64,000 nucleotides of DNA, taken from assembly GCF_013315695.1 (NCBI RefSeq), contig NZ_CP054353.1; one strand, given 5' to 3'. This document shows, piece after piece, positions 29,947-60,306 of the stretch. The position numbers and the translations under genes are program-made. Origin of the DNA: Escherichia coli (GTDB lineage: Bacteria; Pseudomonadota; Gammaproteobacteria; Enterobacterales; Enterobacteriaceae). Within the stretch, counting starts at the first letter, position 1. Every line of letters starts with the position of its first letter. The notes under the pieces were generated by a model. That model saw only the letters and a list, made by a program, of their open reading frames with translations. It was not told the origin of the DNA and did no database searches.

Positions 29947-29958
29947 CACCTTCTGCTG
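29947..29958. repeat. 12-bp target-site duplication (right copy) of IS4
   Basis: CACCTTCTGCTG immediately outside IS4 right IR. Confidence 0.85.
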
Positions 29959-40340: not shown

Positions 40341-41240
40341 GTGGCGCTACTTATCATCACCACGATTCTGTGGGCCTTCTCCTTTAGCTTTTATGGCGAG
40401 TACCTTGCGGGGCACGTCGATAGCTATTTTGCGGTGCTGGTGCGCGTTGGCCTGGCGGCACTCGTTTTTCTGCCGTTTCTGCGTACCCGTGGCAATAGCC
40501 TGAAAACGGTCGGCCTGTATATGCTGGTGGGCGCGATGCAGCTCGGTGTGATGTATATGCTGAGTTTCCGCGCCTATCTCTACCTGACGGTCTCCGAATT
40601 GTTGCTGTTCACCGTACTGACGCCGCTCTACATCACGCTAATTTATGACATCATGAGTAAGCGCCGTCTGCGCTGGGGCTATGCTTTTAGCGCCTTGCTG
40701 GCGGTGATTGGTGCCGGGATTATTCGCTATGATCAGGTCACCGACCATTTCTGGACTGGCTTATTGCTGGTGCAACTCTCCAATATCACTTTTGCCATCG
40801 GCATGGTGGGTTACAAACGTCTGATGGAAACTCGCCCGATGCCGCAGCATAACGCCTTTGCGTGGTTCTATCTTGGCGCGTTCCTGGTGGCAGTGATTGC
40901 ATGGTTCTTGCTAGGAAATGCGCAGAAAATGCCGCAAACCACGTTGCAATGGGGCATTCTGGTGTTTCTTGGCGTGGTGGCTTCCGGGATTGGCTACTTT
41001 ATGTGGAACTACGGCGCGACGCAGGTGGACGCCGGAACGCTGGGCATTATGAATAATATGCACGTTCCGGCAGGGCTGCTGGTAAACCTGGCTATCTGGC
41101 ACCAACAGCCGCACTGGCCAACGTTTATTACAGGCGCGCTGGTGATCCTGGCCTCACTGTGGGTGCATCGTAAGTGGGTCGCTCCGCGCTCTTCACAAAC
41201 GGCAGATGATCGCAGGCGTGATTGCGCGCTGAACGAATAA
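40341..41240 (+). CDS. yigM: DMT/EamA-family transporter (biotin transporter)
   Basis: 299 aa 10-TM; 3' end overlaps metR 3' end. Confidence 0.85.
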
Positions 41241-44553: not shown

Positions 44554-45450
44554 TCAGGAACAGAAAATTAATTGCGGATTTCTTAAATATTCTATGCACC
44601 ACTGACAGGCTTTGCCCATACCATCGGAACGAGCGGCAAGAAATAACTTGGTGGCGTGTTTATGTTCGCGCATTGGCTTTTTAAGCAATTTACCGCTGTT
44701 CAATAACGGCAATGCCAGATGATGTGGAATATAACCAATACCGACGTTTTGTTCTATTAAGGCGATTGCCGTAGCGAAGTCAGGAACAAAAATGGGTTTT
44801 TGTCCTTCCAACAACCAGGCTTGCATCGGGGGGAAGTTAACGGAGGTATCGCGGATACAAACCGCTGGATAATGACGCAATTCACTGTTTTCTAATGGAT
44901 GCCGCTTCGCTGCCAGTGGGTGGAGTGGGCTGACGACAAAATCCCATTCCATTTGTCCGACCGGTTCGCTAATGATGCCTTCACTGCTTGGCACTGCATG
45001 AGGAGCACCGTAGACCAGATCGGCACGCTTACTGTACAGCGCATCCCAGCAGCCGTTGTATACCTCAAGATCTACCGTCAGTGTTGTTGATGTGAATTGC
45101 CGTTCAAAATCTCGAATAAATGCCACCAGCAAATCACCAGGAATAATATTGTTCACCGCAATTGTCAGTTCACGCTCAATACCATCGTGAATCAGCACTG
45201 TGTTGCGCTTTAATGCTTCCAGGTCGCCAAGAATAGTTTTGCTATGTTCGATGAAGTAACTTCCCGCTGGCGATAATTCAATATAGCGTCCCTTACGAAT
45301 GAACAGTTCAACGCCCAGGCTCTCTTCCGCTTTCTTGATGGTGTAACTGATAGCGGAAGGGACTTTATTTAACTGCTCGGCTGCGGTGGTAATGCTCTGG
45401 TGTCTGGCGACCAGATGAATAACACGAAGCGTTTCGTCTGAGATGAACAT
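44554..45450 (-). CDS. LysR-family transcriptional regulator
   Basis: 298 aa; N-terminal wHTH (ITTAAEQLNKVPSAISYTIKKAEESLGVELF) and LysR substrate-binding domain. Confidence 0.8.
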   Translation of the reverse strand: MFISDETLRVIHLVARHQSITTAAEQLNKVPSAISYTIKKAEESLGVELFIRKGRYIELSPAGSYFIEHSKTILGDLEALKRNTVLIHDGIERELTIAVNNIIPGDLLVAFIRDFERQFTSTTLTVDLEVYNGCWDALYSKRADLVYGAPHAVPSSEGIISEPVGQMEWDFVVSPLHPLAAKRHPLENSELRHYPAVCIRDTSVNFPPMQAWLLEGQKPIFVPDFATAIALIEQNVGIGYIPHHLALPLLNSGKLLKKPMREHKHATKLFLAARSDGMGKACQWCIEYLRNPQLIFCS

Positions 45451-45527
45451 AAGGCTCCCTGGTCAGTGGTAAAGTGGCTGAATCTCTCCAGATTCAGCCG
45501 TAATCATTGCCTGAGTATACCCAGGAA

Positions 45528-46751
45528 TTAGCGGTGTTGACTTGCCTGACTGAGAATCGCATACGCGATACATGCCACCAGAATCGAGTCTACCGAAGGG
45601 ATCGTCGTCAGGGTGAATAAGCCTTTTACGGTCATAAAGCCAACCGCTGCGCCTATGATCCATGCTGCGAATGTCAGCACTTTAATCTGTGACTCCTGGG
45701 CTAACACTGACTCTTGATAGCCATTACGGCGATAAAGGAAAAAGTCAGCGATATAAATTCCGGCAACGGGTGGCGTGGCGATACCCAGGAACAGCAGAAA
45801 CGGAATAAACCACGCCATAATATCCATACTGCCTACGATGGCGGAAAGGATACCCAGCGCCACGGTAATCTGCCATTTGGGAAAGCGGGTAAGCAGTGTG
45901 GAAACCACCAGCGTGCCCTGGAACATATTGCCCGCGTTACCGGTGACGCAGGCGAAAATCAACAACAGCGCCGCAGGCAGAACCGCACCGAATACCGCCA
46001 TCGCACCCAGTAAAGATCCCTGACCACTAATGGCGCTCGGCGTTGCACCCGCCCAGTAGAGCAGAGGGTAGGCAACCAGAAACGTCACGCCTGCGGCAAT
46101 CAGCGCATGTTTGCGGTTATGTACAAAACTACCGAAATCAGGCAGTGTGGCAACCAGCACAATAATGGTGCCAACAACGGTGGAAACGGCGACACCTGTA
46201 TTCATCTCCACAATCGCCGCTGGTACTGCCACTTCGGTATGGGTTGCCACATAGAGGATGTAACACAGCACCAGCGCGATAACCGGCACGGCAACCTGGG
46301 CAATTTTTCCCAGAACGGCAAAGCCAAATGCCGTAGAGGCGACAAAAATGACACAGCCAGCCGCCACTAACAGTGCCAGTGGAACTTCCAGTCCATGTTG
46401 AGCCAGTAAGTCATGTACCGAATGACCAAACATATTGGCGGTAACGGCAATCCAGCCGAACAGACTTATCGCCATCAAAATGTTAATGGCGATGGCCCCT
46501 TTTTCGCCAAACGAATATTTCACAATGCCATACGTTGGTAGGCGGGCTTTTTCTCCCACGCTAATGGTGATGGCTGAAAGTAAGGTCAGAATGACGCCGC
46601 CTAACAATACGACGCTAATTAAACTGCCGCTGGAAAGTTGATTGCCGAGGCTTGAGGATGACAACAGCACAGGTGTGACGGCAATACCCAGCAAAATCAT
46701 GGCAATACGCAATCCTGATGCCGTATTCAGATTCTCTTCTTTTTTACGCAT
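45528..46751 (-). CDS. NCS1-family (CodB-like cytosine/nucleobase) permease
   Basis: 407 aa polytopic; resembles CodB architecture (…VGEKARLPTYGIVKYSFGEKGA…). Confidence 0.7.
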   Translation of the reverse strand: MRKKEENLNTASGLRIAMILLGIAVTPVLLSSSSLGNQLSSGSLISVVLLGGVILTLLSAITISVGEKARLPTYGIVKYSFGEKGAIAINILMAISLFGWIAVTANMFGHSVHDLLAQHGLEVPLALLVAAGCVIFVASTAFGFAVLGKIAQVAVPVIALVLCYILYVATHTEVAVPAAIVEMNTGVAVSTVVGTIIVLVATLPDFGSFVHNRKHALIAAGVTFLVAYPLLYWAGATPSAISGQGSLLGAMAVFGAVLPAALLLIFACVTGNAGNMFQGTLVVSTLLTRFPKWQITVALGILSAIVGSMDIMAWFIPFLLFLGIATPPVAGIYIADFFLYRRNGYQESVLAQESQIKVLTFAAWIIGAAVGFMTVKGLFTLTTIPSVDSILVACIAYAILSQASQHR

Positions 46752-46776
46752 AGTATGTTCCCTTTATAAATGCGCG

Positions 46777-47166
46777 TTACACAGTATGAAAATGCCCGGT
46801 GTATTTGCGCCAGCTGCCCAGTTCTGTAATTTCCCGTTGGCCTTCGGTCAGCCAGTTTTCTGCCAGTACGCCCAGCACTTCGCTACCATCGGCAAGTTTG
46901 ATTTTGCCAATTGCCAGCCCAGCGGGTTCGCTCATTAACAGAGCGGCAAAACTGGCCAGCGGTAATTGCCAAATTTCTACGTCGACGTGTGTTCCTCCTT
47001 CATTCACGCGAATCATTCCCGGATGGCGATCATTAATACTCCACAACCGGTAATGGGCGTCAGTTCGGTCTTCACGGACAAAAATACCGCCCGCTTTTTG
47101 CATATTTGGGTTGAGTTCCAGGCCGCGCATCAGCGTTCCGTTAACGGCTAAAAGCGTTGTAGTCAT
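46777..47166 (-). CDS. gamma-glutamylcyclotransferase-like (AIG2 / allophanate hydrolase C-terminal domain-like) protein
   Basis: 129 aa; N-terminal LLAVNGTLMRG motif typical of GGCT fold. Confidence 0.5.
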   Translation of the reverse strand: MTTTLLAVNGTLMRGLELNPNMQKAGGIFVREDRTDAHYRLWSINDRHPGMIRVNEGGTHVDVEIWQLPLASFAALLMSEPAGLAIGKIKLADGSEVLGVLAENWLTEGQREITELGSWRKYTGHFHTV

Positions 47167-47182
47167 TGTGTTCTCCAGAGAA

Positions 47183-48139
47183 TTAAAGGGTTATCCATGT
47201 ACCGCTCTGATGCGCCAGGGCTGCTTTTATGGTTTGCGGTGAAGTAATCAGGCCGCTGGCCTGTTTGCCTTGTTGCTGGCTGGCATTGATGAAATCAACA
47301 ATGGCTTCCACTTTGGGTTGCATACTGCCGACACCAAACTGACCTTCCCGCAACAGCGTTTGCGCTTCGGCAACGCTGATAGCGTCGAGCCACTGTTGTT
47401 GTGGTGTACCAAAGTTAATCGCCACTTTTTCTACACCGGTGGGGATCACCAGCAGATCTGCGCCTAACTGACTGGCGAGCAGCGCGGAGGCCAGATCTTT
47501 ATCGATCACGGCTTCCACACCTTTCAGTTGTTGCCCGTCTCGCACCACCGGAATACCGCCGCCGCCGCAGGCAATAACCAGATATCCCTGGCGCACCAGG
47601 TGAGCGATGGTGTCGTGCTCAATAATTTCCAGTGGTGCAGGAGAGGGAACTGTACGCCGCCAACCACGCCCGGCGTCCTCCATCAGCGTCCAGCCGAGTT
47701 GTTGTTGGCGTTGTTGGGCCGTTGCTTCATCGAGAAACGCGCCAATTGGTTTACTGGGGCTGGCGAAAGCATCGTCATGTGGGCTGACTCGCGTTTGTGT
47801 CACCAGGGCAATTACCGGTTTGTTTATGCCACGGCGAGCCAATTCGTTATGCAGTGCTTTCTGGAACATGTAGCCAATTGCACCTTGTGTATCACCCACG
47901 GCGTAATCAAGTGGAACCGGAGAAACTTCGTTACTGGCGAGTTCAGAGCGGCGCAGAATAAAGCCCACCTGCGGGCCATTACCGTGGGTTAGTACCAGGT
48001 CCCATCCGGCTTCAACCATATCAACGATATGCTGCACGCTTTCCATCACTGCAACATATTGATCGGGAATACTATTGCGTTGCTCGTCCTGAATGAGCGC
48101 ATTGCCGCCAACCGCGACGACAGCCAGTGGCTTAACCAT
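47183..48139 (-). CDS. carbamate kinase-like protein
   Basis: 318 aa from MVKPLAVVAVGGNAL...; amino-acid kinase family; start overlaps upstream stop (ATGGTTAA). Confidence 0.8.
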   Translation of the reverse strand: MVKPLAVVAVGGNALIQDEQRNSIPDQYVAVMESVQHIVDMVEAGWDLVLTHGNGPQVGFILRRSELASNEVSPVPLDYAVGDTQGAIGYMFQKALHNELARRGINKPVIALVTQTRVSPHDDAFASPSKPIGAFLDEATAQQRQQQLGWTLMEDAGRGWRRTVPSPAPLEIIEHDTIAHLVRQGYLVIACGGGGIPVVRDGQQLKGVEAVIDKDLASALLASQLGADLLVIPTGVEKVAINFGTPQQQWLDAISVAEAQTLLREGQFGVGSMQPKVEAIVDFINASQQQGKQASGLITSPQTIKAALAHQSGTWITL

Positions 48140-49556
48140 GATGGTTCTCCTTTGCGACGATCTCCGCCAGTGCACGTACAGCGGCGACAAAACAGGCCAT
48201 CGGCGCAGTGGTGATCCCGGCACCAATTTGCCCGACCCCCGCTTGTTTGTGGGCGATACCCGTATTGATGACCGGTAAAATGCCGCGATCGGTCACTTTA
48301 CGCGCATCAATCCCTGCTGCGGTGGGGGCAAAATTGAGGGCTGGAAGTGTAAATGCGGGGTTACCGCCGAGGGTGATGGCTTGCATCCGACGGCTGTTAT
48401 TGGTGGCATCGGCAGGGGTGCCTCCCACAAATTTGACGATCGCCGGAGACGACGCCATCGCGAAGCCACCCACACCTGCGGTTTCAGTAATTGCGCTATC
48501 ACCCAGGTCAGCAGCAGCGTCGTCAACGCCAAATCCGGGGAAGAACAGACCTTCAACGGCATTGGCAGGAGCCTGGAACCAGCGATCGCCAGTACCGGAA
48601 ATCCGAATACCAAAATTCACCCCGTTACGCGCCATCACCGTAACCATTGAACTGAACGGTACATTGGCGGCGGCATCCATCATTGCTTTACAGGCGGCCA
48701 TCGACAGATTGAGGAAGAAGTGATCGTTACCGGTGATAAATGCCACGACGCGCTGGATATGTTCCTGTGGAAGAGAGCAGGCCAGCAATGCCGGGAGCAG
48801 GCGCTTAATCAGCAAACCGGTAGCGGCAGCATTGCGGTTATGAACTTCATCCCCCATATGCAGCGCCTGCGCCATTAATGGCTTGAGTTCCAGCTCGCCG
48901 TGTTGTGCGATTGCTGCTTTCATTGCCGGCGCCAGTTCATCGCGCATCCAGGCCAGACGATTGAGAACTTCATCGTTATTGGCGCCAAAACGGAGAACCT
49001 TACCCAGACCTTCATTGAAATTGCTAAAAGTACGATGGCCGTTGGTTTTGTTTTCTACCACCCATAACGGCATCGACGGGCTGATGATGCCTGCCATTGG
49101 GCCAACCGCGTGATAATGATGACAAGGGGCAAGGTCGATTTCGCCTGCGTTTATTTGGTTTTCAGCGTCTTGCTGGCTGGTGGCCCAACCTTCGTACAGC
49201 ATGGCACCAATAATCGCCCCTTTTACCGGACCACACATCTCTTCCCAGGCAATCGGCGGGCCAGAGTGCAAAATACGTTTTTGTTCAGCCATTGCTGGAA
49301 TGGCCTCTTTAGCGAGCATGACATCCACCAGCACGGGCTGTGCTTCGAGATAACGTGTCATGGCGATTTGGTTGGCATTTTCTACCAGGGGATGACGTAG
49401 CAACGATGCCAGATCCAATCCAGCGTCAATATCGCCTTGTGCTGGTGGCTGCCAGTTGAGTGCAATTGCGCTTCCCCCGGCATGTTGAATATTGTCAGCA
49501 AAACTGTGTAGTCCCGCGTTCACGACCTTCAAAGGCTGATTAAATAAGGTATTCAT
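48132..49556 (-). CDS. DUF1116 protein (YlbE/YahG-like)
   Basis: 474 aa from MNTLFNQPLKVVNAG...; ATGA start/stop overlap with upstream FdrA-like gene. Confidence 0.75.
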   Translation of the reverse strand: MNTLFNQPLKVVNAGLHSFADNIQHAGGSAIALNWQPPAQGDIDAGLDLASLLRHPLVENANQIAMTRYLEAQPVLVDVMLAKEAIPAMAEQKRILHSGPPIAWEEMCGPVKGAIIGAMLYEGWATSQQDAENQINAGEIDLAPCHHYHAVGPMAGIISPSMPLWVVENKTNGHRTFSNFNEGLGKVLRFGANNDEVLNRLAWMRDELAPAMKAAIAQHGELELKPLMAQALHMGDEVHNRNAAATGLLIKRLLPALLACSLPQEHIQRVVAFITGNDHFFLNLSMAACKAMMDAAANVPFSSMVTVMARNGVNFGIRISGTGDRWFQAPANAVEGLFFPGFGVDDAAADLGDSAITETAGVGGFAMASSPAIVKFVGGTPADATNNSRRMQAITLGGNPAFTLPALNFAPTAAGIDARKVTDRGILPVINTGIAHKQAGVGQIGAGITTAPMACFVAAVRALAEIVAKENHHG

Positions 49557-51112
49557 GCGTTTAGCCCCTTTTTCTGCAACTGAGTCTGTGCAACGGTGCT
49601 GGCCCATAACGCCGCCTGTGCATTGCTGCTGGCGATGATGACCCCTGCATTTTGTAGTGCGCTTATCTGCTGACTGCGTATTTGCGGATCAGCTTCCGTT
49701 CCGCAAACGTGCGCAATCAGCAACGGTGCGTTATTCATGTCGATGTGTGAAAGTTGGTCCAGTAATTCGCTGGCAGGCGTCGTGGAAGCGCCATAACCAA
49801 GTACCAGGTCGAATAACACGACGGCAGTGTGTGAGTCGTTGAGTTCGTTGAGCAGACGTTGATTGCGCAGAGTCGGGTCGATCATTGGATGCGGTTTGCC
49901 ACGGGTGAAATCATCGTCGCCCATATCGATCAACGTGTGATCTTCGCTTTGCCAGATATTTGCCAGAGCACGATTACCCGCAACTGGCGTATTGGAGGCT
50001 GCGATGAATCCCTTTTGTTGGCAGATAAGTTGCGCTTCGTAGCAGAAGGTTCCTCCGGCGAAAACACCGCGTATCGCCTGGCGATGGGCTGGCAGGCGCT
50101 GGCAGGCGTTTTGTAACATTGTGAGATCGTCGCAGGAAATTTCGGTCTCGATAGTCGGAAGTGGTTGATCATTCAGTAACGCCACGGCGATATTTGCGGC
50201 GCTGGCAAGTGTGGTGGCCGCGGTGATATTGGGACGTGCCAGATCATGCGGATTCGCACCGAGGAAATTCACCACCACGGGTTTTCCACAAGCCTCGGCA
50301 CGCTCCAGAATAGTCCGGGCAACGATCGGTGAAGGCGGTTTTGAAATAAGCACAATCACGCGAGTTTCATCGTCTTGCGCCAGCGCATCTAAAGCGAAGA
50401 GCATCGATATTCCACCAATCTCTTCACTGAGATCATGTCCGCCTGTTCCCAACGCCTGAGAAATACCCGCTCCGAGCTGGTCGATTCGGCAAGTCACTTC
50501 CTGTAACCCGGTGCCTGACGCGCCAATAACACCAATTGCTCCGCGTTTCACCACATTAGCGAAGCCTAACGGAATGCCGTTAACAATGGCGGTTCCACAG
50601 TCAGGTCCCATTACGATGCGCTGACGTTCTCGGGCAAGCGTTTTGATGGATTTTTCCTGCACGATACTGACGTTATCGCTGAACATCATCACGTTCATTC
50701 CGAGGTTTAACGCTTTAATTGCTTCGGCGGCGGCGTAGTCTCCCGGTACAGAAATGAGTGCCAGGTTGGCTTCGGGCTCGGCTTCCAGTGCCATTTCCAG
50801 GCTGACCTTTTCCGGTGATTTAATGCCACTATCCGTTTCATCATCGGGTTTGCTGGTCAGACGTTGCTGGGCCAGTACCAGTGCTTCATTGCAAATATCT
50901 TCTTCACCCATGACTGCAATCACTAAATCATTGGGACTGGCGTTGATTTCGTTACCCAGACCCGCATCGCGCAATTGTTCGAGATTATTGGGCGTTCCCA
51001 TGACGACCGAGGCCTGTTGAATACCGGGCAACTTGCTGATTTGCGCGGAAATCTGCATCAGAGAAACTGAGTCCTGATAAAGATTACTGAAAACTTTATA
51101 TTTAACTTTCAT
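49553..51112 (-). CDS. FdrA-like protein (succinyl-CoA synthetase alpha-like CoA-binding/ligase domains)
   Basis: 519 aa; FdrA/YahF-like. Confidence 0.75.
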   Translation of the reverse strand: MKVKYKVFSNLYQDSVSLMQISAQISKLPGIQQASVVMGTPNNLEQLRDAGLGNEINASPNDLVIAVMGEEDICNEALVLAQQRLTSKPDDETDSGIKSPEKVSLEMALEAEPEANLALISVPGDYAAAEAIKALNLGMNVMMFSDNVSIVQEKSIKTLARERQRIVMGPDCGTAIVNGIPLGFANVVKRGAIGVIGASGTGLQEVTCRIDQLGAGISQALGTGGHDLSEEIGGISMLFALDALAQDDETRVIVLISKPPSPIVARTILERAEACGKPVVVNFLGANPHDLARPNITAATTLASAANIAVALLNDQPLPTIETEISCDDLTMLQNACQRLPAHRQAIRGVFAGGTFCYEAQLICQQKGFIAASNTPVAGNRALANIWQSEDHTLIDMGDDDFTRGKPHPMIDPTLRNQRLLNELNDSHTAVVLFDLVLGYGASTTPASELLDQLSHIDMNNAPLLIAHVCGTEADPQIRSQQISALQNAGVIIASSNAQAALWASTVAQTQLQKKGLNA

Positions 51113-51206
51113 GCTGTTACGCCTGTTTCATTCCGCCCGATAGCAAAATTCGGGCAAAGTATCCCCGTGTAGCCCCATAAACGGGCTACGGGAGAAAAGG
51201 TTGAAA

Positions 51207-52067
51207 TCAATTCATGGTGTTCAGGGTTCGAAAGCCATGCAGCATTCCTGCAAGGCAATCTACTCCTGACGTTGCGCCAAATTGCATGACCTGTTCTGCA
51301 CAGGATGCGATTGTCATTGCCGATGCGCTCCCAACCAGTTGTGCGAGTAACTGGCAAATCGGTTCTGAAAAATGTCCCTGAAGCGCACGCTCCAGATAAT
51401 GACGACTGATATCCGTGGTGTTGTGCGCATGTTGATCAATTGCCTGCTGCAACCGGTATTGATGATCGGCAAGTGGTGCAGGGAGTTGCCATAACCAGAG
51501 CGCTGCCAGATAGCCCAACAAATAGTCATCTCCATCGGGCGTTAAGCCTTTACCAAAGCCGATCAGTTGTGGCACCTGGCGTTCCAGCGCATCTGGATGC
51601 TCCATAATCGCTAATCCCTGGTGCGTGAGACTATCCGGCAGGTGCAATGTGCTTTGAACGTTATGTTCCAGACAAAATAAAAGCCGTTGCGATGCCATCG
51701 TTGGGTAGTGCTGGAAAACCAAAGGGAATGCCTCAAGTGTCAGCATTCCCCCCACAAATGGCGACTGCCAGAGCGTTGCGTTATCGAGCGCCACACAAAA
51801 TCGAGGTGTCCGCAGTAAGCCTGGGGTTAACTGAATGGGATCTGAATGGGCAATCTCTCTTCGCCAGTCCCAACATTCAGGTAGCCAGACTCTGGCAGCA
51901 TCAGGGAGATTCAGATACGTTTGCGCACACAACAGAGTGATGAATGTTCCCGCGTCTGAATACAGATTTACCGCATGTTTAAAAGCGCTATGCAGACGTA
52001 AATCTTGCGTTTCATTCTGCGGGAAAATATATCCCAACGACGATGCGCAAAGCGTAACCTGTACCAT
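51207..52067 (-). CDS. DUF2877 protein (YlbF/YahE-like)
   Basis: 286 aa; co-occurs with DUF1116 and FdrA-like genes. Confidence 0.65.
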   Translation of the reverse strand: MVQVTLCASSLGYIFPQNETQDLRLHSAFKHAVNLYSDAGTFITLLCAQTYLNLPDAARVWLPECWDWRREIAHSDPIQLTPGLLRTPRFCVALDNATLWQSPFVGGMLTLEAFPLVFQHYPTMASQRLLFCLEHNVQSTLHLPDSLTHQGLAIMEHPDALERQVPQLIGFGKGLTPDGDDYLLGYLAALWLWQLPAPLADHQYRLQQAIDQHAHNTTDISRHYLERALQGHFSEPICQLLAQLVGSASAMTIASCAEQVMQFGATSGVDCLAGMLHGFRTLNTMN

Positions 52068-52072
52068 CGGCG

Positions 52073-52741
52073 TTAGCCTTCCAGACCTGCAATAATGGCT
52101 TTGGAATCAGTAACCCAACCGAAAATGGCACCTTGTGCTTTGATCATCTCGAGGGCGTATTTCTGGAATTCCGGGAAATAGGAGCCGACACAATCTTCCG
52201 GGATAATGCATTCATAGCCACGATCATTTGCTTCGCGCACGGTGGTGGTTACGCAAACTTCGGTTGTAACACCACAAACTATCAGCGTCTTGATACCGTG
52301 GTTTTGCAAAATCAGATGTAAGTCGGTTTGATAAAACGCGCCTTTGCCAGGCTTATCAATCACCGGTTCGCCTGCCACCGGGTACAGTTCAGGAATGATG
52401 TCATGACCTGCTTCACCTCTGACCAGAATGCGTCCCATCGGTCCTGGTTCACCAATAAAGGTTTTTCCGCCGCGCGTCAGTTTGGCTGGCGGGCAGTCGC
52501 TTAAGTCTGCACGATGGCCTTCACGAGTATGAATAACCATAATTCCTTTTTGACGTGCGGCTGCCAGCACCTCTGTACATGGTGCGATAGCCGTGCGTAC
52601 CAGTGAAACATCATTGCCCAGTGCCTCACCGAAGCCCCCTGCTTCGACAAAGTCACGCTGCATGTCGATCATGACCAGTGCAGTTGTGCGCGGATCAAAA
52701 GGTAATTCAAAGGGTTGAGCCTGAAAAATGGATTGCGTCAT
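52073..52741 (-). CDS. isochorismatase-family cysteine amidohydrolase (RutB / N-carbamoylsarcosine amidase-like)
   Basis: 222 aa; ALVMIDMQRDF and LIVCGVTTEVCV motifs of isochorismatase-like hydrolases. Confidence 0.8.
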   Translation of the reverse strand: MTQSIFQAQPFELPFDPRTTALVMIDMQRDFVEAGGFGEALGNDVSLVRTAIAPCTEVLAAARQKGIMVIHTREGHRADLSDCPPAKLTRGGKTFIGEPGPMGRILVRGEAGHDIIPELYPVAGEPVIDKPGKGAFYQTDLHLILQNHGIKTLIVCGVTTEVCVTTTVREANDRGYECIIPEDCVGSYFPEFQKYALEMIKAQGAIFGWVTDSKAIIAGLEG

Positions 52742-54866: not shown

Positions 54867-56357
54867 TTATTGACGCCGTAAACGCATTATTTTGCGGATT
54901 ATTGGCGTCAGTAGCGTAAAGGCTGCCAGAGTCAGCAATGCCAGAGTGATCGGTCGGGTATACAGAAAGTCGAGTGAACCACCAGAAAGCGACAGCGCAC
55001 GGCGAAAATTACTTTCCGCCATTGGCCCCATAATCAATGCCAGCACTACGGGTGATGCCGGATATCCTCCTTTCTGCATGAAATAGCCCACCACGCCTGC
55101 AATCAGCATAATGCCAACATCAAACAGGCTATTGTTCAACGCATAAGTCCCGACCACACAAAGTGCGAGGATCATCGGTGTGAGAATATTGCCGGGGATC
55201 TTCACCACGTTACCGATGACTTTCAAAGAGAGCAGTCCAAGAACTAGCAGCATGAAGTAACAAAAGATCATGCCGACAAACAGTGTATAAACCATATCGC
55301 CGTGGTCGGTAAACATCAGCGGGCCTGGTTGCATTCCCTGTAACGTTAACGCGCCCAGCATGATGGCGGTTACCGCATCGCCAGGGATCCCCAGCGTCAG
55401 CATAGGTAACAATGCGCCACCGGTGCAGCCATTCGCGCCTGCCTCACAGGAGGCCACAGCTTTAATTTCACCCTTACCAAAGTTTTCTGGTGTCTTACTG
55501 AAACGACGAGTTTCGTTATAGGCAACAAAAGCTGCAATATCCGCCCCCGCACCGGGGATCATGCCGATAAAAACCCCTAATCCTGATGAGCGCAAAATGG
55601 TTAATGCAATGCGGCGTAGTGTTTGCCAGGGCAGTAACAGACTGCCGATAGCCACCTTCGCCCCCTGACGAATTTGCTGGTTTTGCTCCATAGAGCGGAA
55701 TGCATCTGAAGCAGCAAATAAACCAATCATCACCGGGATAAATGGCACATTCATCAGCTCCACAAATCCACCTGTAAACCGTGGAAAACCGCCCATTGGA
55801 TCAAGGCCTATCGTTGCGATCAGCAATCCGCCAACCCCGGCAATCAGCCCTTTAATCAGTGACTCACCGGAAATACTGGCAATAATGCTCAGTCCGAAGG
55901 TTGCCAGGGCGAAGGACTCCGAGGCACTAAATTTCAGCGCCCAACTGGCAAGTACCGGAGAGAGAAACATCAGCACGATAATGCTGAGCGTTCCGCCACT
56001 AAAGGAAGAGAACGTGGCGGCACTCAATGCCAGCCCTGCTTTTCCCTGTTTCGTCAGCTCATAACCATCAATAGCGGTGGCTGCGGCGGCAGGCGTTCCG
56101 GGAATTTTGAGCAAAATTGCGGTGATAGAACCACCGTAGACGCCACCAAAAAAGACGCCGCAAATCATCAACAAGCCAGAAACAGGCTCCATGCCGTAGG
56201 TGAAAGGCAGCAAAATCACCACACCCATGGTCGCTGTCAGACCAGGCAAAGCGCCAATCACAATACCCAGCATCACCCCAAAAGTGGCAAACAGCAGCGC
56301 CTGAGGATTATTGAGTAATGTCGAAAAACCCTGAGTTAAAAGTTCACTTTCAAACAT
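54867..56357 (-). CDS. tripartite tricarboxylate transporter large permease TctA-like
   Basis: 496 aa polytopic, TctA family. Confidence 0.8.
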   Translation of the reverse strand: MFESELLTQGFSTLLNNPQALLFATFGVMLGIVIGALPGLTATMGVVILLPFTYGMEPVSGLLMICGVFFGGVYGGSITAILLKIPGTPAAAATAIDGYELTKQGKAGLALSAATFSSFSGGTLSIIVLMFLSPVLASWALKFSASESFALATFGLSIIASISGESLIKGLIAGVGGLLIATIGLDPMGGFPRFTGGFVELMNVPFIPVMIGLFAASDAFRSMEQNQQIRQGAKVAIGSLLLPWQTLRRIALTILRSSGLGVFIGMIPGAGADIAAFVAYNETRRFSKTPENFGKGEIKAVASCEAGANGCTGGALLPMLTLGIPGDAVTAIMLGALTLQGMQPGPLMFTDHGDMVYTLFVGMIFCYFMLLVLGLLSLKVIGNVVKIPGNILTPMILALCVVGTYALNNSLFDVGIMLIAGVVGYFMQKGGYPASPVVLALIMGPMAESNFRRALSLSGGSLDFLYTRPITLALLTLAAFTLLTPIIRKIMRLRRQ

Positions 56358-56369
56358 TGCTGGCCCCTG

Positions 56370-56879
56370 TTATTCGAAAAATGTGCCGACAGGCAATGGC
56401 ACCTGTAACGCTTCGACAAACAGCAACCAGAGGATTGCCGTTAACAGCAGCGCAATACCCGGTGTGAGTACCCATCGCCTGTAGCCCATCAACGTCATAA
56501 TGACGATGAGGAAAACAGGAGTAGTAATGAGATAACCGCAGTAGCTCATCGCCACAATATAAAATGCGGTTGCCGCAATTCCTGTTGCCGTTTTCCTGAA
56601 TGCCGGTTTTTCCTGTGCGTTGGCGCAAGAGGCTGGTTTTGCCTGCAAAAGATCGCGTATCACCAGCAAGACAGCGAGCACAATCAGGGCACAGGCATAG
56701 AAGGTAGGGAAGGCACTTGCACCGGGATCCGTTTCAATGGCAGTTGCTGGAAAATCAGCGGCATTAATCATCACCGCGCCAGCAACCACACAAAGTAACA
56801 GCGCCACCACCATCGTTGATGAAAGGCGCTTGCGGTGCGGTACGGCGAGTTGAGCAACAGACTGTTTTGTGTTCATCAA
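56370..56879 (-). CDS. TctB-like small permease subunit
   Basis: 169 aa, ~4 TM, between TctC- and TctA-like genes. Confidence 0.7.
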   Translation of the reverse strand: MMNTKQSVAQLAVPHRKRLSSTMVVALLLCVVAGAVMINAADFPATAIETDPGASAFPTFYACALIVLAVLLVIRDLLQAKPASCANAQEKPAFRKTATGIAATAFYIVAMSYCGYLITTPVFLIVIMTLMGYRRWVLTPGIALLLTAILWLLFVEALQVPLPVGTFFE

Positions 56880-56892
56880 CCGTACCTCAGGT

Positions 56893-57867
56893 TTATTTTT
56901 TCAGGCCCAGGCGAGTCAGCAACTCGTCAAAGTACTTTTCCTGTTCGCTGATTTGGGTCTGGAAGCTGGCAGCGTCAAGCCATGCATAGTTGAGATTCAA
57001 CTTTTGCAGTGCATCCTGGAATGCAGGCTCTTCAGCCGTCTCTTTTGCTGCCTTTGCCAGAACATCCACCACATCCTGCGGCGTTTTTTGCGACACAATC
57101 AGGCCGCGCCAGGTGCCGATGGAGAGATCAACGCCTTTCTCTTTTAACGTCGGGACGTCAGGCATGGTTTTCATTCGCTCATCCGCCATCACTACCAGTG
57201 TCTTCAGCTTGCCGCCATTCACATGGTTGATAACTTCTCCTGGGCTTACGGAAACCGCTTCAATGTGCCCGCCTAACAGGCCTGTAATGGCAGGGGCTGC
57301 GCCGTCATACGGGACATGAGAAAACTTTGCGCCCGTTTTGTCTTCCAGTGCAGCTGCCGCCAGATGCCAGATAGCTCCGGTGCCTGAGTTACCAATGCGT
57401 ACTTTTCCGGGATTCGCTTTGGCGTAAGTCATAAATTCTTCATAGCTATTCCACGGCGCATCGGCACGGACTGTGATAGCAGCCGGATCCGCATTCAGAC
57501 GGGCAATGGGTTTAAAGTCGCTGGTTTTAAAACGCACCATTCCGAGGCTGGGAAGGGTGGTCAGTTCAACTGTGCCTAAACCAATTTTGTAACCGCCAGG
57601 GCGGGCAGCGGCGATTTCACTCAGGCCGATAGCACCGCCTCCGCCAGGTTTATTGATAACCCCGATGCTGACGGGTAAATGGTTTTTGGCGGCATCAGCA
57701 AAGGCACGGGCAACCAGATCCGTACCGCCTCCGGCAGCGTAGGGAACGACTAACTCGATCTGTTTGGTTGGGTAGGAGGCTGCCTGTACAGGCGCAATGC
57801 TGAGGGCAGCGCCTGCAAGAAGTACCATTGCAGCCATTTTTTTCGGTAAGGTAAGATGTTTTATCAT
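56893..57867 (-). CDS. TctC/Bug-family periplasmic substrate-binding protein
   Basis: 324 aa with signal peptide. Confidence 0.8.
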   Translation of the reverse strand: MIKHLTLPKKMAAMVLLAGAALSIAPVQAASYPTKQIELVVPYAAGGGTDLVARAFADAAKNHLPVSIGVINKPGGGGAIGLSEIAAARPGGYKIGLGTVELTTLPSLGMVRFKTSDFKPIARLNADPAAITVRADAPWNSYEEFMTYAKANPGKVRIGNSGTGAIWHLAAAALEDKTGAKFSHVPYDGAAPAITGLLGGHIEAVSVSPGEVINHVNGGKLKTLVVMADERMKTMPDVPTLKEKGVDLSIGTWRGLIVSQKTPQDVVDVLAKAAKETAEEPAFQDALQKLNLNYAWLDAASFQTQISEQEKYFDELLTRLGLKK

Positions 57868-57891
57868 TGCTTTTATATCCTTATTTATCAG

Positions 57892-58521
57892 TTAGTTGCT
57901 ATTTAAATTGTTCCATGCGTTCATAAACAGTACTGCATTTTCATAGACTTGCTCTGGCGTCATGCCGGGGTGATATAGCGCAGAACCGAGGCCAAAGCCG
58001 TTTGCGCCGTGGCTCAGATAACGCGCCATGGTTTCCGGTGTGATACCGCCAACCGGTAACATCGGAACGGATTGTGGAATAACCGCACGCCAGGCTTTGG
58101 TAACTTCTGGCGTAATTTGTTCAGCCGGGAACAGCTTGATGGCATTAGCACCATGTTCAATGGCAGCAAAGGCTTCGGTGGGCGTGGCGACGCCAGGCGC
58201 ACAATACATACCCAGCGCACGGGCGCGACGGATCACCGCAGTATCGCAATGCGGCATCACGATAATCTGGCCCCCAGCCTCTTTAACCGCAACCACCTGC
58301 TCTACCGAAAGCACAGTTCCGGCTCCGACCAGGCAGTCCTTAGGCAGGGCGTCGCGCAGTAAACTGATACTTTGCAACGCCTCCGGCGAGTTCATAGGAA
58401 TCTCAATCAGGCGGAATCCGGCGGCGTACAGTTTTTCACCGATGGCGACAATCTCATCCGGTTTCACGCCGCGTAAAATGGCGACTAACCCGGTTTTTTG
58501 CAAAAGCGTCTTAAATGGCAT
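57892..58521 (-). CDS. 2-dehydro-3-deoxy-6-phosphogalactonate/KDPG aldolase (DgoA/Eda family)
   Basis: ~209 aa from MPFKTLLQKTGLVAILRGVKPDE...; clear similarity to DgoA. Confidence 0.8.
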   Translation of the reverse strand: MPFKTLLQKTGLVAILRGVKPDEIVAIGEKLYAAGFRLIEIPMNSPEALQSISLLRDALPKDCLVGAGTVLSVEQVVAVKEAGGQIIVMPHCDTAVIRRARALGMYCAPGVATPTEAFAAIEHGANAIKLFPAEQITPEVTKAWRAVIPQSVPMLPVGGITPETMARYLSHGANGFGLGSALYHPGMTPEQVYENAVLFMNAWNNLNSN

Positions 58522-59515
58522 GGGTACATTCCCTGGCGTTGGTGGACAGTAACCCGGCAGCGTGGGCGATTCGCCATAATCCCTGTTCAGTGGCATTAGG
58601 AATGGCGTGTATCTGTCTGTCGGGAAAAACGTGGCTGAATGCTTGTGAATAGCGGCTGTTCAGATTTGCGCTACCGATTAAAGCGATCGGTGTTGTGGCG
58701 GGTAAATCACGTAGCAAACTGGATGCCAGACCACATAATTCATGGCCTATCAGTAATCCGGAAAGGTAATCCCCCTGCGAGGACGACGTAAGATTACTGG
58801 TCAGCAGGCGCGAACGGGTCGAAAACAGCGTCGATAATAATCCGGTCTGATGATGCTCTTGTGCTGCTGTCAGCCCGTGGGTGAAGGCATCCCAGTGCGG
58901 TTCATCTCCAGGATGCATGGTGGCACCGAGAATCGAATGGCGGGATAAAACATCAAATAACTCGCCCGTCATAAAGGTTCGGAAATCGGTAATGGTGTTG
59001 TTTTCAACTACTGCCCATTTCGCATGTGTGCCGGGTAAGCCTATCAGCACTGGCATACCCTGATGGATCGCGTTTTGCAGGGCCGGTTCCATCGAGATAG
59101 CACCGAAGATTTGTGTCTCTTCGCCACGCATCACTTCGGGCATTTCACCTTCTTTAATCACGCCAGGAATGATGTGCAGCATTGTCTGCTGCTGGTGGAT
59201 AACAGGCGTCAACTGCTTCGCCAGACCCTCGAGAGTGACCGGGCAAGGTAAATAAGCTGCTGGTTGCCACCCTTGCGCACTGCCGAGCATGCCGCAAGCC
59301 AGTACCGGGCATGGGGTTTGTGCCAGCCAGTCGCCGCAGACACGTAAAAACGTATCGTGGAAAGCGTCCTCACGTGTTGCTGCCTGGGAGGGTAATTTCA
59401 TGATCCCCCAGGGGAATTCACGTTTTTCTTGTGGATTTGGTGATTCGTCAAAACGCCATGCCCGAAGCGATGACGTTCCCCAGTCCAGGGCAATAAATGA
59501 GGGTGCTCCCGGCAT
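58511..59515 (-). CDS. 2-dehydro-3-deoxygalactonokinase-like (DgoK family)
   Basis: 334 aa; ALDWGTSSLRAW N-terminus as in DgoK. Confidence 0.7.
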   Translation of the reverse strand: MPGAPSFIALDWGTSSLRAWRFDESPNPQEKREFPWGIMKLPSQAATREDAFHDTFLRVCGDWLAQTPCPVLACGMLGSAQGWQPAAYLPCPVTLEGLAKQLTPVIHQQQTMLHIIPGVIKEGEMPEVMRGEETQIFGAISMEPALQNAIHQGMPVLIGLPGTHAKWAVVENNTITDFRTFMTGELFDVLSRHSILGATMHPGDEPHWDAFTHGLTAAQEHHQTGLLSTLFSTRSRLLTSNLTSSSQGDYLSGLLIGHELCGLASSLLRDLPATTPIALIGSANLNSRYSQAFSHVFPDRQIHAIPNATEQGLWRIAHAAGLLSTNARECTHAI

Positions 59516-59538
59516 TAGTCGTTTCCTTTAATCATGGT

Positions 59539-60306
59539 TTATTTATCTTTGCGGACGTGCTTACCCCAGCCCAGTTCAGCGGATATCTCTTCTGCACAGG
59601 ATTTGACGTAAGGTGCCAGTTCTTCCAGACGCGCCAGCGACATATACGTGGTGGTACTGGCGACAGAAATAGCCGCCACAATTTCATCCCGGGCGTTGTA
59701 AACCGGCGCTGCAACGCAACGGATAGTCGGCTCGTTCTCTTCCAGATCAAAAGCAAAACCACTGGTGGCATAACGACGCATGTTCTGAATAAATGCGCCC
59801 AGTTTTGTTTCATCACCACAGGTCTTAAACAGCGTGCGCCACTCTTCTTCTGTTCGGTTGAGGATCAATGCCTTGCCGATGCCGGTGATTGCCAGTGGCA
59901 TGCGATGGCCTGGGCGTGAGCGCATTTCCAGCCCGCGCTGACTGTTGATCTTCTCCAGATACAGCACTTCGTCGCCTTCAACGATCCCCAGATGCACGGT
60001 GTCCAGGGTGTAACGGGCAAGGCGTTGCAAAACGGGCTGGGCAATTTCGTACAGCGAGGTGCTTTCCAGTGCTCTGGCACCGAATTCGATCAGTTTGGCA
60101 CCCAGTTGGTAGCCCTGCGTTGGGACATGGCGCAGGTAGCGTTGTTCCACCAGAACGGTGACTAAACGATGGGTTGTGCTCCGGGTCGTGCCGGTGAACT
60201 CGCCGATACTTTTTAGGTCATGGCAGCCGTTATAAACAGCATTAAGAACCGCCAGTCCACGTAATAACGTTTGTGCGCCTGCGGTGGTTGAAGAGGTTTC
60301 TGCCAT
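59539..60306 (-). CDS. IclR-family transcriptional regulator
   Basis: 255 aa from MAETSSTTAGAQTLLRGLAVLNAV...; AGGAG RBS 6 nt before ATG. Confidence 0.8.
   Translation of the reverse strand: MAETSSTTAGAQTLLRGLAVLNAVYNGCHDLKSIGEFTGTTRSTTHRLVTVLVEQRYLRHVPTQGYQLGAKLIEFGARALESTSLYEIAQPVLQRLARYTLDTVHLGIVEGDEVLYLEKINSQRGLEMRSRPGHRMPLAITGIGKALILNRTEEEWRTLFKTCGDETKLGAFIQNMRRYATSGFAFDLEENEPTIRCVAAPVYNARDEIVAAISVASTTTYMSLARLEELAPYVKSCAEEISAELGWGKHVRKDK

What the first reader, a model, noticed from the sequence alone, without database searches (positions are those of the whole stretch)
48132..49556. Start/stop codon overlaps (ATGA and ATGGTTAA) linking FdrA-like, DUF1116 and carbamate kinase genes
The FdrA-like stop TGA shares bases with the DUF1116 ATG (ATGA), and the DUF1116 stop TAA lies inside the first codons of the carbamate kinase gene (ATGGTTAA). 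Such overlaps imply translational coupling and fixed stoichiometry, consistent with the three products forming one enzyme complex.
Basis: seen in the sequence. Interest (0 to 1): 0.3.

Follow-up and report, generated by a model that had tools for sequence, protein, structure and literature searches.

The report
Ordinary start/stop overlaps in ureide operon
Both gene overlaps are real and correctly placed, but they are the commonest kind of gene junction in E. coli. The enzyme complex they hint at most likely pairs the FdrA-like and DUF1116 proteins with an upstream DUF2877 protein, not with carbamate kinase.

Summary
Observation confirmed. On the minus strand the FdrA-like stop and the DUF1116 start form ATGA (49556-49553). 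The carbamate kinase (CK) start and the DUF1116 stop form ATGGTTAA (48139-48132). RefSeq annotation, conserved N-termini and Shine-Dalgarno (SD) sites 7-8 nt upstream (AAGGGG, AAGGAG) all support these starts. No other start would remove either overlap.

The feature is ordinary. Ten of 42 same-strand gene pairs around this window overlap, and six are ATGA, including dapF-yigA-xerC, which I know of no evidence for as a complex. Published E. coli data rank -4, -1 and -8 as the three commonest junctions. About 30% of tight pairs encode complex subunits.

Across 80 related loci both junctions stay tight. FdrA>DUF1116 has a median gap of +2 nt and overlaps in 46%. DUF1116>CK has a median of +4 nt and overlaps in 42%. 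The exact state flips between close relatives; Salmonella and Citrobacter have -4 where E. coli has -8. Translational coupling is therefore plausible but untested.

The "three-protein complex" reading is only partly right. In the characterised paralogue the complex is AllF-AllG-AllH (FdrA, DUF1116, DUF2877), and CK works alone. Here DUF2877 lies upstream, behind a 94-nt spacer.

The genes belong to an accessory 8-gene island with a TrtA/BiuH-like hydrolase.

The parts
49553..49556 (-). ATGA junction: DUF1116 ATG (49556-49554) overlaps the FdrA-like TGA (49555-49553) by 4 nt
   Evidence: Sequence. PGAP coordinates. Same -4 junction in Salmonella and Citrobacter from independent gene calls. -4 in 25 of 74 related loci.
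48132..48139 (-). ATGGTTAA junction: CK ATG (48139-48137) overlaps the DUF1116 TAA (48134-48132) by 8 nt
   Evidence: Sequence. PGAP coordinates. Identical in a plasmid and a divergent chromosomal E. coli copy. Close orthologues have -4 (ATGA or GTGA) instead.
49565..49570 (-). Shine-Dalgarno-like AAGGGG, 8 nt upstream of the DUF1116 ATG, inside the FdrA-like coding tail (..KKGLNA*)
   Evidence: Sequence. The plasmid allele reads AAGGAG, which changes Gly to Glu in the FdrA tail and improves the SD.
48147..48152 (-). Shine-Dalgarno AAGGAG, 7 nt upstream of the CK ATG, inside the variable C-terminal tail of DUF1116 (..AKENHHG*)
   Evidence: Sequence. AAGGAG is kept in Salmonella, Citrobacter and Edwardsiella although the encoded tail differs.
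49553..51112 (-). FdrA/AllF-like gene (519 aa)
   Evidence: Pfam CoA_binding + Ligase_CoA. NCBIfam FdrA subfamily 496.6 bits against a cut-off of 433. 40% identity to K-12 FdrA.
48132..49556 (-). DUF1116/AllG (YlbE-family) gene, 474 aa, 'long' form carrying an N-terminal ~55-aa segment
   Evidence: Pfam PF06545 AllG, E = 5e-99. 46-48% identity to YahG and YlbE. PDB 3CLQ matches residues 57-465 only.
47183..48139 (-). Carbamate kinase gene (318 aa)
   Evidence: NCBIfam TIGR00746 arcC 366.2 bits against a cut-off of 358.25; PRK12352 377.6 against 266.
51207..52067 (-).
   Evidence: Pfam PF11392 AllH 95.6 bits. PGAP name 'oxamate carbamoyltransferase subunit AllH family protein'.
51113..51206 (-). 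94-nt spacer between the DUF2877 and FdrA-like genes, with two predicted hairpins
   Evidence: RNA fold -35.2 kcal/mol, z = -2.25. A 93-146 nt spacer occurs in six orthologous clusters (two enteric, four Burkholderiaceae) but only 33-37 nt in two others. No Rfam match. No robust consensus structure.
52073..52741 (-). TrtA/BiuH-like cysteine hydrolase (isochorismatase fold), first gene of the cluster
   Evidence: Pfam Isochorismatase. NCBIfam BiuH 279.8 bits, below the 370 cut-off. Best PDB matches: 6XIX at 270.6 bits and 6XJ4 at 266 bits, both deposited as 'Cysteine hydrolase' (I recall them as Herbaspirillum TrtA); 6AZO/5BK6 'Putative amidase' (I recall them as Rhizobium BiuH) and 6XJM 'Biuret hydrolase' at 234-237 bits.
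46777..47166 (-). Stand-alone allophanate-hydrolase C-terminal-domain protein (129 aa)
   Evidence: Pfam AH_C, E = 1.6e-41. Full-length match to PDB 5C5Z, 287 bits over residues 1-129.
45528..46751 (-). NCS1-family permease (407 aa)
   Evidence: Pfam Transp_cyt_pur. NCBIfam cytosine permease 145.9 bits, below the 326 cut-off.
44554..45450 (-). LysR-type regulator (298 aa), PunR/AllS-like
   Evidence: Pfam HTH_1 + LysR_substrate. NCBIfam PunR 286.7 and AllS 214.3 bits, both below cut-off.

Best explanation
The two overlaps are genuine, ordinary operon junctions. They join the FdrA-like, DUF1116 and CK genes with no room for a terminator or promoter between them, presumably inside one polycistronic mRNA.

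Shown: the exact overlap geometry; the true start codons; SD motifs embedded in the 3' tails of the upstream genes; and tight spacing at both junctions across many phyla.

Inferred: ribosomes finishing the FdrA-like gene reinitiate, or hand over, at the DUF1116 ATG. The same happens from DUF1116 to CK. The internal SD sites assist this and also allow some independent initiation. The likely effect is co-ordinated, roughly proportional synthesis of the three proteins.

Inferred from the AllFGH paralogue: the FdrA-like and DUF1116 proteins are about 1:1 subunits of a carbamoyltransferase whose third subunit is the DUF2877 protein encoded upstream. That third subunit is loosely bound and possibly sub-stoichiometric. 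CK is not a subunit. It is the next enzyme, converting the labile carbamoyl phosphate to ATP plus carbamate, and its tight linkage serves pathway balance rather than assembly.
For: Overlaps and starts.

SD sites conserved at the RNA level while the encoded tails vary.

No inhibitory RNA structure at either junction (z = +1.87 and +0.35).

Family-wide junction statistics. FdrA>DUF1116: n = 74, median +2 nt, 46% overlapping, -4 in 25 loci, 64% within -8..+10. DUF1116>CK: n = 48, median +4 nt, 42% overlapping, -4 in 17 loci, -8 in 2.

Independent gene calls agree for Vibrio (+11/-4), Citrobacter (-4/-4) and Salmonella (-4/-4).

Overlapping pairs are experimentally coupled and are 4.5-fold enriched for complex subunits: PMC10666635.

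AllF-AllG-AllH is the active oxamate carbamoyltransferase. AllF and AllG appear in similar amounts. When only AllH carried a tag, AllF and AllG washed out: PMC11326118.

AllK is active alone: PMC9843812.

Rosetta-stone-type evidence that FdrA and DUF1116 associate: in K-12 the segment homologous to DUF1116 residues 11-42 is the C-terminus of AllF (residues 513-544), in the same reading frame as allG. PDB 3CLQ is the corresponding short DUF1116 form.
Against: No expression, ribosome-profiling or interaction data exist for this island.

Strong SD sites in open RNA mean the downstream genes might be translated mostly by independent initiation.

The junction state is labile. Junction 1 is -4 in E. 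coli, Serratia and Edwardsiella but +10 to +12 in Caballeronia, Budvicia and Silvimonas. Junction 2 is -8, -4 or +18/+19. So overlap itself is not strictly required.

Neutral models reproduce much of the short-overlap distribution without selection (PMC3887535).

Complex composition is extrapolated from a paralogue only 33-47% identical. The AllFGH quaternary structure is itself unresolved.

My comparative start calls are heuristic: the nearest start codon to the aligned Met1, with bonuses for ATG and an SD. The 80 loci are the most similar of at least 584 hits, not a random sample.
Confidence: 0.65

Rival explanations
1. One reading: the FdrA-like, DUF1116 and CK proteins assemble into one complex with fixed stoichiometry, perhaps to channel carbamoyl phosphate. 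The overlaps exist to enforce that stoichiometry.
For: The DUF1116>CK junction is tight in most loci where CK is adjacent: 30 of 48 within -8..+10 nt and 42% overlapping. Tight pairs are 4.5-fold enriched for complex subunits. Carbamoyl phosphate is labile, and from memory a CK-like enzyme was reported to interact with ornithine carbamoyltransferase in Pyrococcus furiosus; I did not check this here.
Against: AllFGH is active without AllK, and AllK is active alone. In the K-12 yah paralogue CK lies 421 nt downstream of yahG. In the all operon CK follows allH, not allG. No CK was found within the retrieved flanks in 32 of the 80 related loci, some of which are short contigs. About 70% of tight E. 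coli pairs are not complex subunits. This reading also omits DUF2877, which is required in the paralogue.
Confidence: 0.12
2. The overlaps are neutral by-products of compaction. A stop codon is lost and the upstream gene extends to the next in-frame stop inside its neighbour. Downstream genes are translated from their own SD sites, with no meaningful coupling and no meaning for stoichiometry.
For: Strong, well-spaced SD sites sit in unstructured RNA. The DUF1116 C-terminal tail varies in length and sequence. The -8 in E. coli, against -4 in Salmonella, Citrobacter, Serratia and Edwardsiella, looks like a shifted stop in a dispensable tail. The junction state flips among close relatives. Simulations explain much of the overlap-length distribution, and long phase-1 overlaps in particular, without selection (PMC3887535).
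Against: All six native overlapping pairs tested experimentally were strongly coupled (PMC10666635). The sharp -4 mode (25 of 74 and 17 of 48) and the near absence of gaps over 24 nt at FdrA>DUF1116 show that tight spacing is maintained over very long evolutionary distances.
Confidence: 0.2
3. The overlaps are annotation artefacts. The true starts lie downstream, so the genes do not overlap.
For: The mechanical ORF list gives other possible starts: ATG 49607 for DUF1116 and TTG 48226 for CK.
Against: Both alternatives are upstream and would lengthen the overlap. Any downstream start would delete near-invariant N-terminal residues (M1, L4, F5, L9 of DUF1116; the GGNAL motif of CK). Homologue lengths, SD positions and three independent annotations agree.
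Confidence: 0.02

Closest known systems
E. coli K-12 allFGHK operon (fdrA-ylbE-ylbF-ybcF): oxamate (oxamic) carbamoyltransferase AllFGH plus catabolic carbamate kinase AllK
   Same: The same four protein families lie in one co-directional cluster: FdrA/CoA-ligase-like, PF06545 AllG, PF11392 AllH and carbamate kinase. Junctions are tight. CK consumes the carbamoyl phosphate that the three-subunit enzyme makes (PMC11326118, PMC9843812).
   Different: Identity is only 40%, 47%, 33% and 39%. Gene order here is H-F-G-K, not F-G-H-K. Junctions differ: +9, +10, -4 in K-12 against +94, -4, -8 here. The F/G gene boundary sits about 55 codons earlier here. The neighbours are a TrtA/BiuH-like hydrolase, an AH_C protein and an NCS1 permease instead of allantoin genes, so the substrate is probably not allantoin-derived oxalurate.
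E. coli K-12 yahD-yahE-yahF-yahG-(yahH)-yahI-yahJ cluster (uncharacterised paralogue)
   Same: Same gene order DUF2877 - FdrA-like - DUF1116 - CK, with a stop/start overlap at FdrA-like/DUF1116 (yahF/yahG -1).
   Different: yahE/yahF overlap by 11 nt, where this cluster has a 94-nt spacer. CK (yahI) lies 421 nt downstream of yahG, with yahH between them. The cluster starts with an ankyrin-repeat protein instead of a BiuH-like hydrolase, and from memory ends with the amidohydrolase YahJ, which I did not retrieve here. Identity is 42-51%.
Termination-reinitiation type overlapping gene pairs (ATGA, TGATG, -8) described by Huber et al. 2019 and 2023
   Same: Co-directional pairs with -4 and -8 overlaps and an SD inside the upstream gene. 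The family-wide median distance falls within their -8..+10 'coupled' class.
   Different: Coupling has not been measured for these pairs. One of the two pairs (DUF1116>CK) probably links sequential enzymes rather than subunits.
biuH/trtA - allFGHK collocations reported in comammox Nitrospira and ammonia-oxidising archaea (PMC12625717)
   Same: The same association of a BiuH/TrtA-type isochorismatase-like hydrolase with FdrA-DUF1116-(DUF2877)-CK, sometimes with a cytosine-permease-like transporter. Two of my related loci are Nitrospira (L018, L021).
   Different: Those authors read it as two separate adjacent pathways (triuret/biuret and oxalurate), and AtzF is often present. The enterobacterial island has no amidase-type allophanate hydrolase, only the isolated AH_C domain.

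Membership tests
Short stop/start overlap gene pair (termination-reinitiation class) | Two adjacent co-directional protein-coding genes | tested here: met
   All three genes are on the minus strand and adjacent.
Short stop/start overlap gene pair (termination-reinitiation class) | Stop of the upstream gene and start of the downstream gene share bases (-4 ATGA/GTGA, -1, or -8) | tested here: met
   ATGA at 49556-49553 and ATGGTTAA at 48139-48132. Starts validated by homology.
Short stop/start overlap gene pair (termination-reinitiation class) | Both genes lie on one transcript, with no terminator or promoter between them | tested here: inconclusive
   Overlap leaves no room for signals between the genes. 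The pattern scan found no more terminator-like sites than shuffled sequence and none at the junctions. No transcript data are available.
Short stop/start overlap gene pair (termination-reinitiation class) | Translation of the downstream gene depends on translation of the upstream gene | not testable with these tools
   Needs reporter fusions with premature stops, or ribosome profiling.
AllFGH-type (FdrA/DUF1116/DUF2877) carbamoyltransferase | FdrA-family protein with CoA_binding and Ligase_CoA domains | tested here: met
   Pfam PF02629 + PF00549. NCBIfam NF004760 496.6 bits, above the 433 cut-off.
AllFGH-type (FdrA/DUF1116/DUF2877) carbamoyltransferase | PF06545 (AllG/DUF1116) protein encoded next to the FdrA gene | tested here: met
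   E = 5e-99. An FdrA-like gene lies within 24 nt upstream of DUF1116 in 68 of the 74 related loci where both ends could be scored.
AllFGH-type (FdrA/DUF1116/DUF2877) carbamoyltransferase | PF11392 (AllH/DUF2877) protein in the same cluster | tested here: met
   95.6 bits against a cut-off of 25, at 51207-52067.
AllFGH-type (FdrA/DUF1116/DUF2877) carbamoyltransferase | The three proteins co-purify and catalyse oxalurate + Pi <-> oxamate + carbamoyl phosphate | not testable with these tools
   Known only for K-12 AllFGH (PMC11326118). The different neighbours here argue for a different carbamoyl donor.
AllFGH-type (FdrA/DUF1116/DUF2877) carbamoyltransferase | Located in the allantoin (all) regulon next to allDCE | tested here: not met
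   The island sits between metE and ysgA with no allantoin genes. It is a paralogue, not the all operon.
Carbamate kinase (arcC equivalog) | Scores above the TIGR00746 / PRK12352 curated cut-offs | tested here: met
   366.2 against 358.25, and 377.6 against 266.
Biuret hydrolase BiuH (NCBIfam equivalog NF050097) | Scores above the curated equivalog cut-off (370 bits) | tested here: not met
   279.8 bits. Closest solved structures are 6XIX/6XJ4 (deposited as 'Cysteine hydrolase'; recalled as TrtA) at 266-271 bits and the biuret-hydrolase entries 6AZO/5BK6/6XJM at 234-237 bits. It belongs to the TrtA/BiuH clade, but its substrate is unassigned.

The most novel reading that the evidence does not exclude
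The FdrA-DUF1116-CK unit may be the core of an uncharacterised, ATP-yielding route for small ureides such as biuret, triuret or carboxybiuret.

In this reading the TrtA/BiuH-like hydrolase makes allophanate or a related N-carbamoyl acid. The AllFGH-like enzyme cleaves it with phosphate instead of water, giving carbamoyl phosphate. The tightly linked CK then converts that to ATP.

The module is conserved from Enterobacterales, Vibrio and Burkholderiales to mycobacteria, Chloroflexi and Firmicutes. In E. coli it is an accessory island found in ExPEC lineages (ST131, IHE3034) and on a 208-kb plasmid from a chicken isolate. Triuret has been reported in human urine, so this could be a urease-independent niche trait.
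Probability: 0.25. Interest if true: 0.6.

Novelty: new member of a known kind. Interest (0 to 1): 0.15.

Why it matters
The overlaps themselves matter little. They are the default architecture of E. coli operons and are already in the RefSeq annotation.

The useful outcome is a correction. Overlap alone is a weak predictor of complex membership. Here it points to the wrong third partner: CK instead of the DUF2877 protein.

The surrounding genes are more interesting. They form an uncharacterised paralogue of the recently discovered AllFGH carbamoyltransferase, linked to a TrtA/BiuH-like hydrolase. The island is present in about 29% of complete E. coli genomes. Its substrate and physiological role are unknown and could be tested directly.

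Tried and rejected
1. Alternative start codons (ATG 49607; TTG/GTG upstream of the CK ATG). Rejected: all lie upstream, so they would lengthen the overlaps, and they are not conserved.

2. An SD-occluding RNA structure that would force strict coupling. Not found: both junctions fold no better than shuffled sequence.

3. A known RNA family in or near the cluster. Only sub-threshold chance hits.

4. A conserved structure in the DUF2877-FdrA spacer. E. coli has two hairpins (z = -2.25), but the 7-sequence alignment gave only a 4-bp consensus stem with weak covariation.

5. Using the annotated record's coordinates directly as window coordinates. This failed for the first ~28 kb. The alignment breaks at the IS1 copy of that record, which appears absent from the window; the IS4 segment is inverted; the offset is +789. 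I re-located the control junctions by sequence.

6. Automated junction calling produced artefacts. tblastn matches ran through stop codons (L003, L034, L042), and CK>AH_C gaps in mycobacteria came out spuriously negative. These values were fixed or excluded.

7. Structure prediction of fused pairs to test interfaces. Not attempted, because the tool returns no inter-chain error or contact output, so the result could not be interpreted.

8. Identifying TrtB (carboxybiuret decarboxylase) with the AH_C protein. The papers I could read do not state TrtB's family, so I make no claim.
Full report
**Observation**

The three genes lie on the minus strand. The plus strand reads TCAT at 49553-49556. On the coding strand this is ATGA, so the DUF1116 ATG (49556-49554) shares TG with the FdrA-like TGA (49555-49553).

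The plus strand reads TTAACCAT at 48132-48139. On the coding strand this is ATGGTTAA, so the CK ATG (48139-48137) lies 8 nt before the end of the DUF1116 TAA (48134-48132).

A complete E. coli chromosome (NZ_OZ547117.1) differs from the window at 1 of 23,801 bases over this region. NCBI annotates it with exactly these boundaries: CK 47183-48139, YlbE-family/DUF1116 48132-49556, FdrA 49553-51112.

**Are the starts right?**

The mechanical ORF list offers longer ORFs: ATG 49607 for DUF1116 and TTG 48226 for CK.

Homologues of DUF1116 are 467-476 aa, against 474 aa here. They begin with the same M-x-x-L-F-x-Q-P-L motif; M1 is nearly invariant and F5 invariant among 15 diverse sequences. In many related loci the aligned ATG is the only available start.

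For CK, every alternative start is upstream. No in-frame start lies in the six codons after the ATG, and reading I see none before the glycine-rich GGNAL motif.

Both starts have Shine-Dalgarno (SD) motifs inside the upstream gene. AAGGGG lies 8 nt before the DUF1116 ATG, and AAGGAG lies 7 nt before the CK ATG.

These motifs behave as RNA-level constraints. A plasmid allele changes AAGGGG to AAGGAG, at the cost of a Gly-to-Glu change in the FdrA tail. AAGGAG is kept in Salmonella, Citrobacter and Edwardsiella although the encoded DUF1116 tail differs (QGEKP* against KENHHG*).

**Is it more than chance?**

The overlaps are real, but they are not unusual.

In the annotation of the near-identical strain, 10 of 42 same-strand adjacent gene pairs overlap. 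Six of these are ATGA junctions: wzxE/rffT, rffT/wzyE, hemC/hemD, dapF/yigA, yigA/xerC and the present FdrA/DUF1116 pair. I confirmed each junction sequence in the window. To my knowledge dapF, yigA and xerC are functionally unrelated, and hemC and hemD are sequential enzymes rather than a stable complex.

Huber et al. 2023 report that in E. coli -4 is the commonest configuration, followed by -1 and -8. They count 707 of 2,987 unidirectional pairs between -8 and +6. Of pairs between -8 and +10, 30.4% encode subunits of heteromeric complexes, against 6.8% for gaps over 20 nt (PMC10666635). Overlap therefore raises the odds of a complex about 4.5-fold but leaves about 70% non-complex.

**Comparative anatomy**

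A scan of one genome per species returned 80 loci from many phyla. I mapped the eight island proteins onto them. For each junction I took the upstream stop and the start codon nearest the aligned Met1, with bonuses for ATG and an SD.

| Junction | n | Median gap | Overlapping | Most frequent | Within -8..+10 | Over +20 |
|---|---|---|---|---|---|---|
| FdrA>DUF1116 | 74 | +2 nt | 46% | -4 (25 loci) | 47 | 6 |
| DUF1116>CK | 48 | +4 nt | 42% | -4 (17 loci); -8 in 2 | 30 | 10 |
| DUF2877>FdrA | 29 | +9 nt | 45% | -4 (7 loci) | 12 | 10 |

In the orthologous 8-gene cluster of Enterobacterales and Burkholderiales, the DUF2877>FdrA spacer is 33-146 nt.

Independent gene calls agree with my junction calls: Vibrio +11/-4, Citrobacter -4/-4 and Salmonella -4/-4.

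So tight spacing is maintained over very long distances, but the exact state is labile. The E. coli -8 differs from the -4 seen in all the closest relatives examined and so looks derived.

Two caveats apply. The start choice is heuristic, and the 80 loci are the most similar of at least 584 hits.

**Coupling**

Neither junction shows unusual RNA structure (z = +1.87 and +0.35). There is therefore no sign of an SD-occluding hairpin that would make downstream translation strictly dependent on upstream ribosomes.

The published experiments on overlapping pairs make termination-reinitiation plausible. The strong SD sites would assist it and would also permit independent initiation. This step is inference; nothing here measures translation.

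**Which proteins form the complex?**

Pfam now names the families after the K-12 enzyme. The DUF1116 protein matches PF06545 (AllG). The protein encoded at 51207-52067 matches PF11392 (AllH). The FdrA-like protein passes the NCBIfam FdrA cut-off.

[quoted passage not shown] With a tag on AllH only, AllF and AllG washed out. The enzyme was assayed without CK (PMC11326118). Purified YbcF/AllK is an active carbamate kinase on its own (PMC9843812).

Overlap does not follow subunit identity in the K-12 paralogues. The junctions are allF/allG +9, allG/allH +10, allH/allK -4, yahE/yahF -11, yahF/yahG -1 and yahG..yahI +421.

One independent genomic argument links FdrA and DUF1116. In K-12, AllF residues 513-544 are homologous to residues 11-42 of the DUF1116 protein here. 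The K-12 sequence runs ...VINIGLRSFALELQ...LERLQ*, then three more codons (GVP), then the allG ATG, all in one reading frame. PDB 3CLQ (421 aa) is the matching short DUF1116 form, aligning to residues 57-465. A segment that can be carried by either polypeptide argues that the two proteins are physically associated.

I found no comparable evidence for CK.

**Context**

The genes belong to an 8-gene cassette at 44554-52741. In order of transcription it encodes:

- a TrtA/BiuH-like cysteine hydrolase;
- the DUF2877 protein;
- the FdrA-like protein;
- the DUF1116 protein;
- CK;
- a stand-alone allophanate-hydrolase C-domain protein, which matches PDB 5C5Z over its full length;
- an NCS1 permease;
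- a LysR regulator.

The cassette is inserted between metE and ysgA.

It is present in 1,559 of 5,426 complete E. coli genomes, including ST131 and IHE3034. There are 127 plasmid placements. The one I examined is flanked by IS fragments on a 208-kb plasmid that also carries eitD.

Essentially the same set of genes occurs in Citrobacter (at the same chromosomal site), Salmonella, Vibrio, Serratia, Edwardsiella, Budvicia, Caballeronia, Paraburkholderia and Silvimonas. A reduced form occurs in mycobacteria.

A BiuH/TrtA-like gene lies within 6 kb in 33 of the 80 loci, and an AH_C gene in 29.

A genome paper on strain BEN2908 lists the island as GR29 and guesses at pyrimidine nitrogen scavenging (PMC12928451). 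A 2025 metagenome study noticed biuH-allFGHK collocation in nitrifiers but read it as two separate pathways (PMC12625717).

I raise, as a hypothesis only, that the AllFGH-like enzyme here phosphorolyses the hydrolase's product (allophanate or a relative) to carbamoyl phosphate. That would explain the conserved tight linkage to CK.

**Verdict**

The feature is an ordinary member of a well-known class. Interest in the overlaps themselves is low, and the uncharacterised island is the more promising lead.

Noticed in passing
window 44554-52741: The finding sits in an accessory 8-gene island between metE and ysgA. It is present in 1,559 of 5,426 complete E. coli genomes (including ST131 and IHE3034), with 127 plasmid placements. 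The plasmid copy I examined (95.6% identity) is flanked by IS fragments on a 208-kb plasmid that also carries eitD. Citrobacter has the island at the same chromosomal site.
   Followed up: partly
L003 (E. coli K-12 NC_000913.3) 5130-5420; window 49392-49556: The FdrA/DUF1116 gene boundary has moved. In K-12 the first ~55 residues of the 'long' DUF1116 are encoded as the C-terminus of AllF (555 aa), in the same frame as allG, separated by one stop and three more codons. PDB 3CLQ is the short DUF1116 type. This looks like a fission or fusion event and supports FdrA-DUF1116 interaction.
   Followed up: partly
window 51113-51206: The 94-nt spacer between the DUF2877 and FdrA-like genes has two predicted hairpins (z = -2.25). 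A spacer of similar length (93-146 nt) occurs in Serratia, Edwardsiella, Budvicia and Caballeronia/Burkholderia clusters. There is no Rfam match and only a weak consensus stem. It could be a processing, stability or regulatory element that sets DUF2877 levels apart from the downstream genes.
   Followed up: partly
window 46777-47166: The stand-alone AH_C-domain protein matches PDB 5C5Z over its full length (287 bits, residues 1-129). That entry is deposited as 'Glutamyl-tRNA amidotransferase', a name that does not fit its Pfam family (allophanate hydrolase C-terminal domain).
   Followed up: no
window 52073-52741: The first gene of the island is a cysteine hydrolase closest to PDB 6XIX/6XJ4 (266-271 bits; deposited as 'Cysteine hydrolase', recalled as the triuret hydrolase TrtA) and to the biuret-hydrolase entries 6AZO/5BK6/6XJM (234-237 bits). 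It scores below NCBI's BiuH equivalog cut-off. No amidase-type allophanate hydrolase is present in the island.
   Followed up: partly
window 54867-60306: A cluster lies between udp and rmuC: a TctABC tripartite tricarboxylate transporter, dgoK/dgoA-like kinase and aldolase genes overlapping by 11 nt, and an IclR regulator. From memory udp and rmuC are adjacent in K-12, so this may be a second accessory island; I did not check.
   Followed up: no
window ~28200-29950: Compared with record NZ_OZ547117.1, the window appears to lack that record's IS1 copy (the alignment breaks there, with a +789 offset upstream). It carries the IS4 segment in inverted orientation, inside a fragmented phosphodiester glycosidase pseudogene.
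   Followed up: partly
window 41128-41240: The annotated 3' ends of bioP (+) and metR (-) overlap convergently by 113 nt.
   Followed up: no
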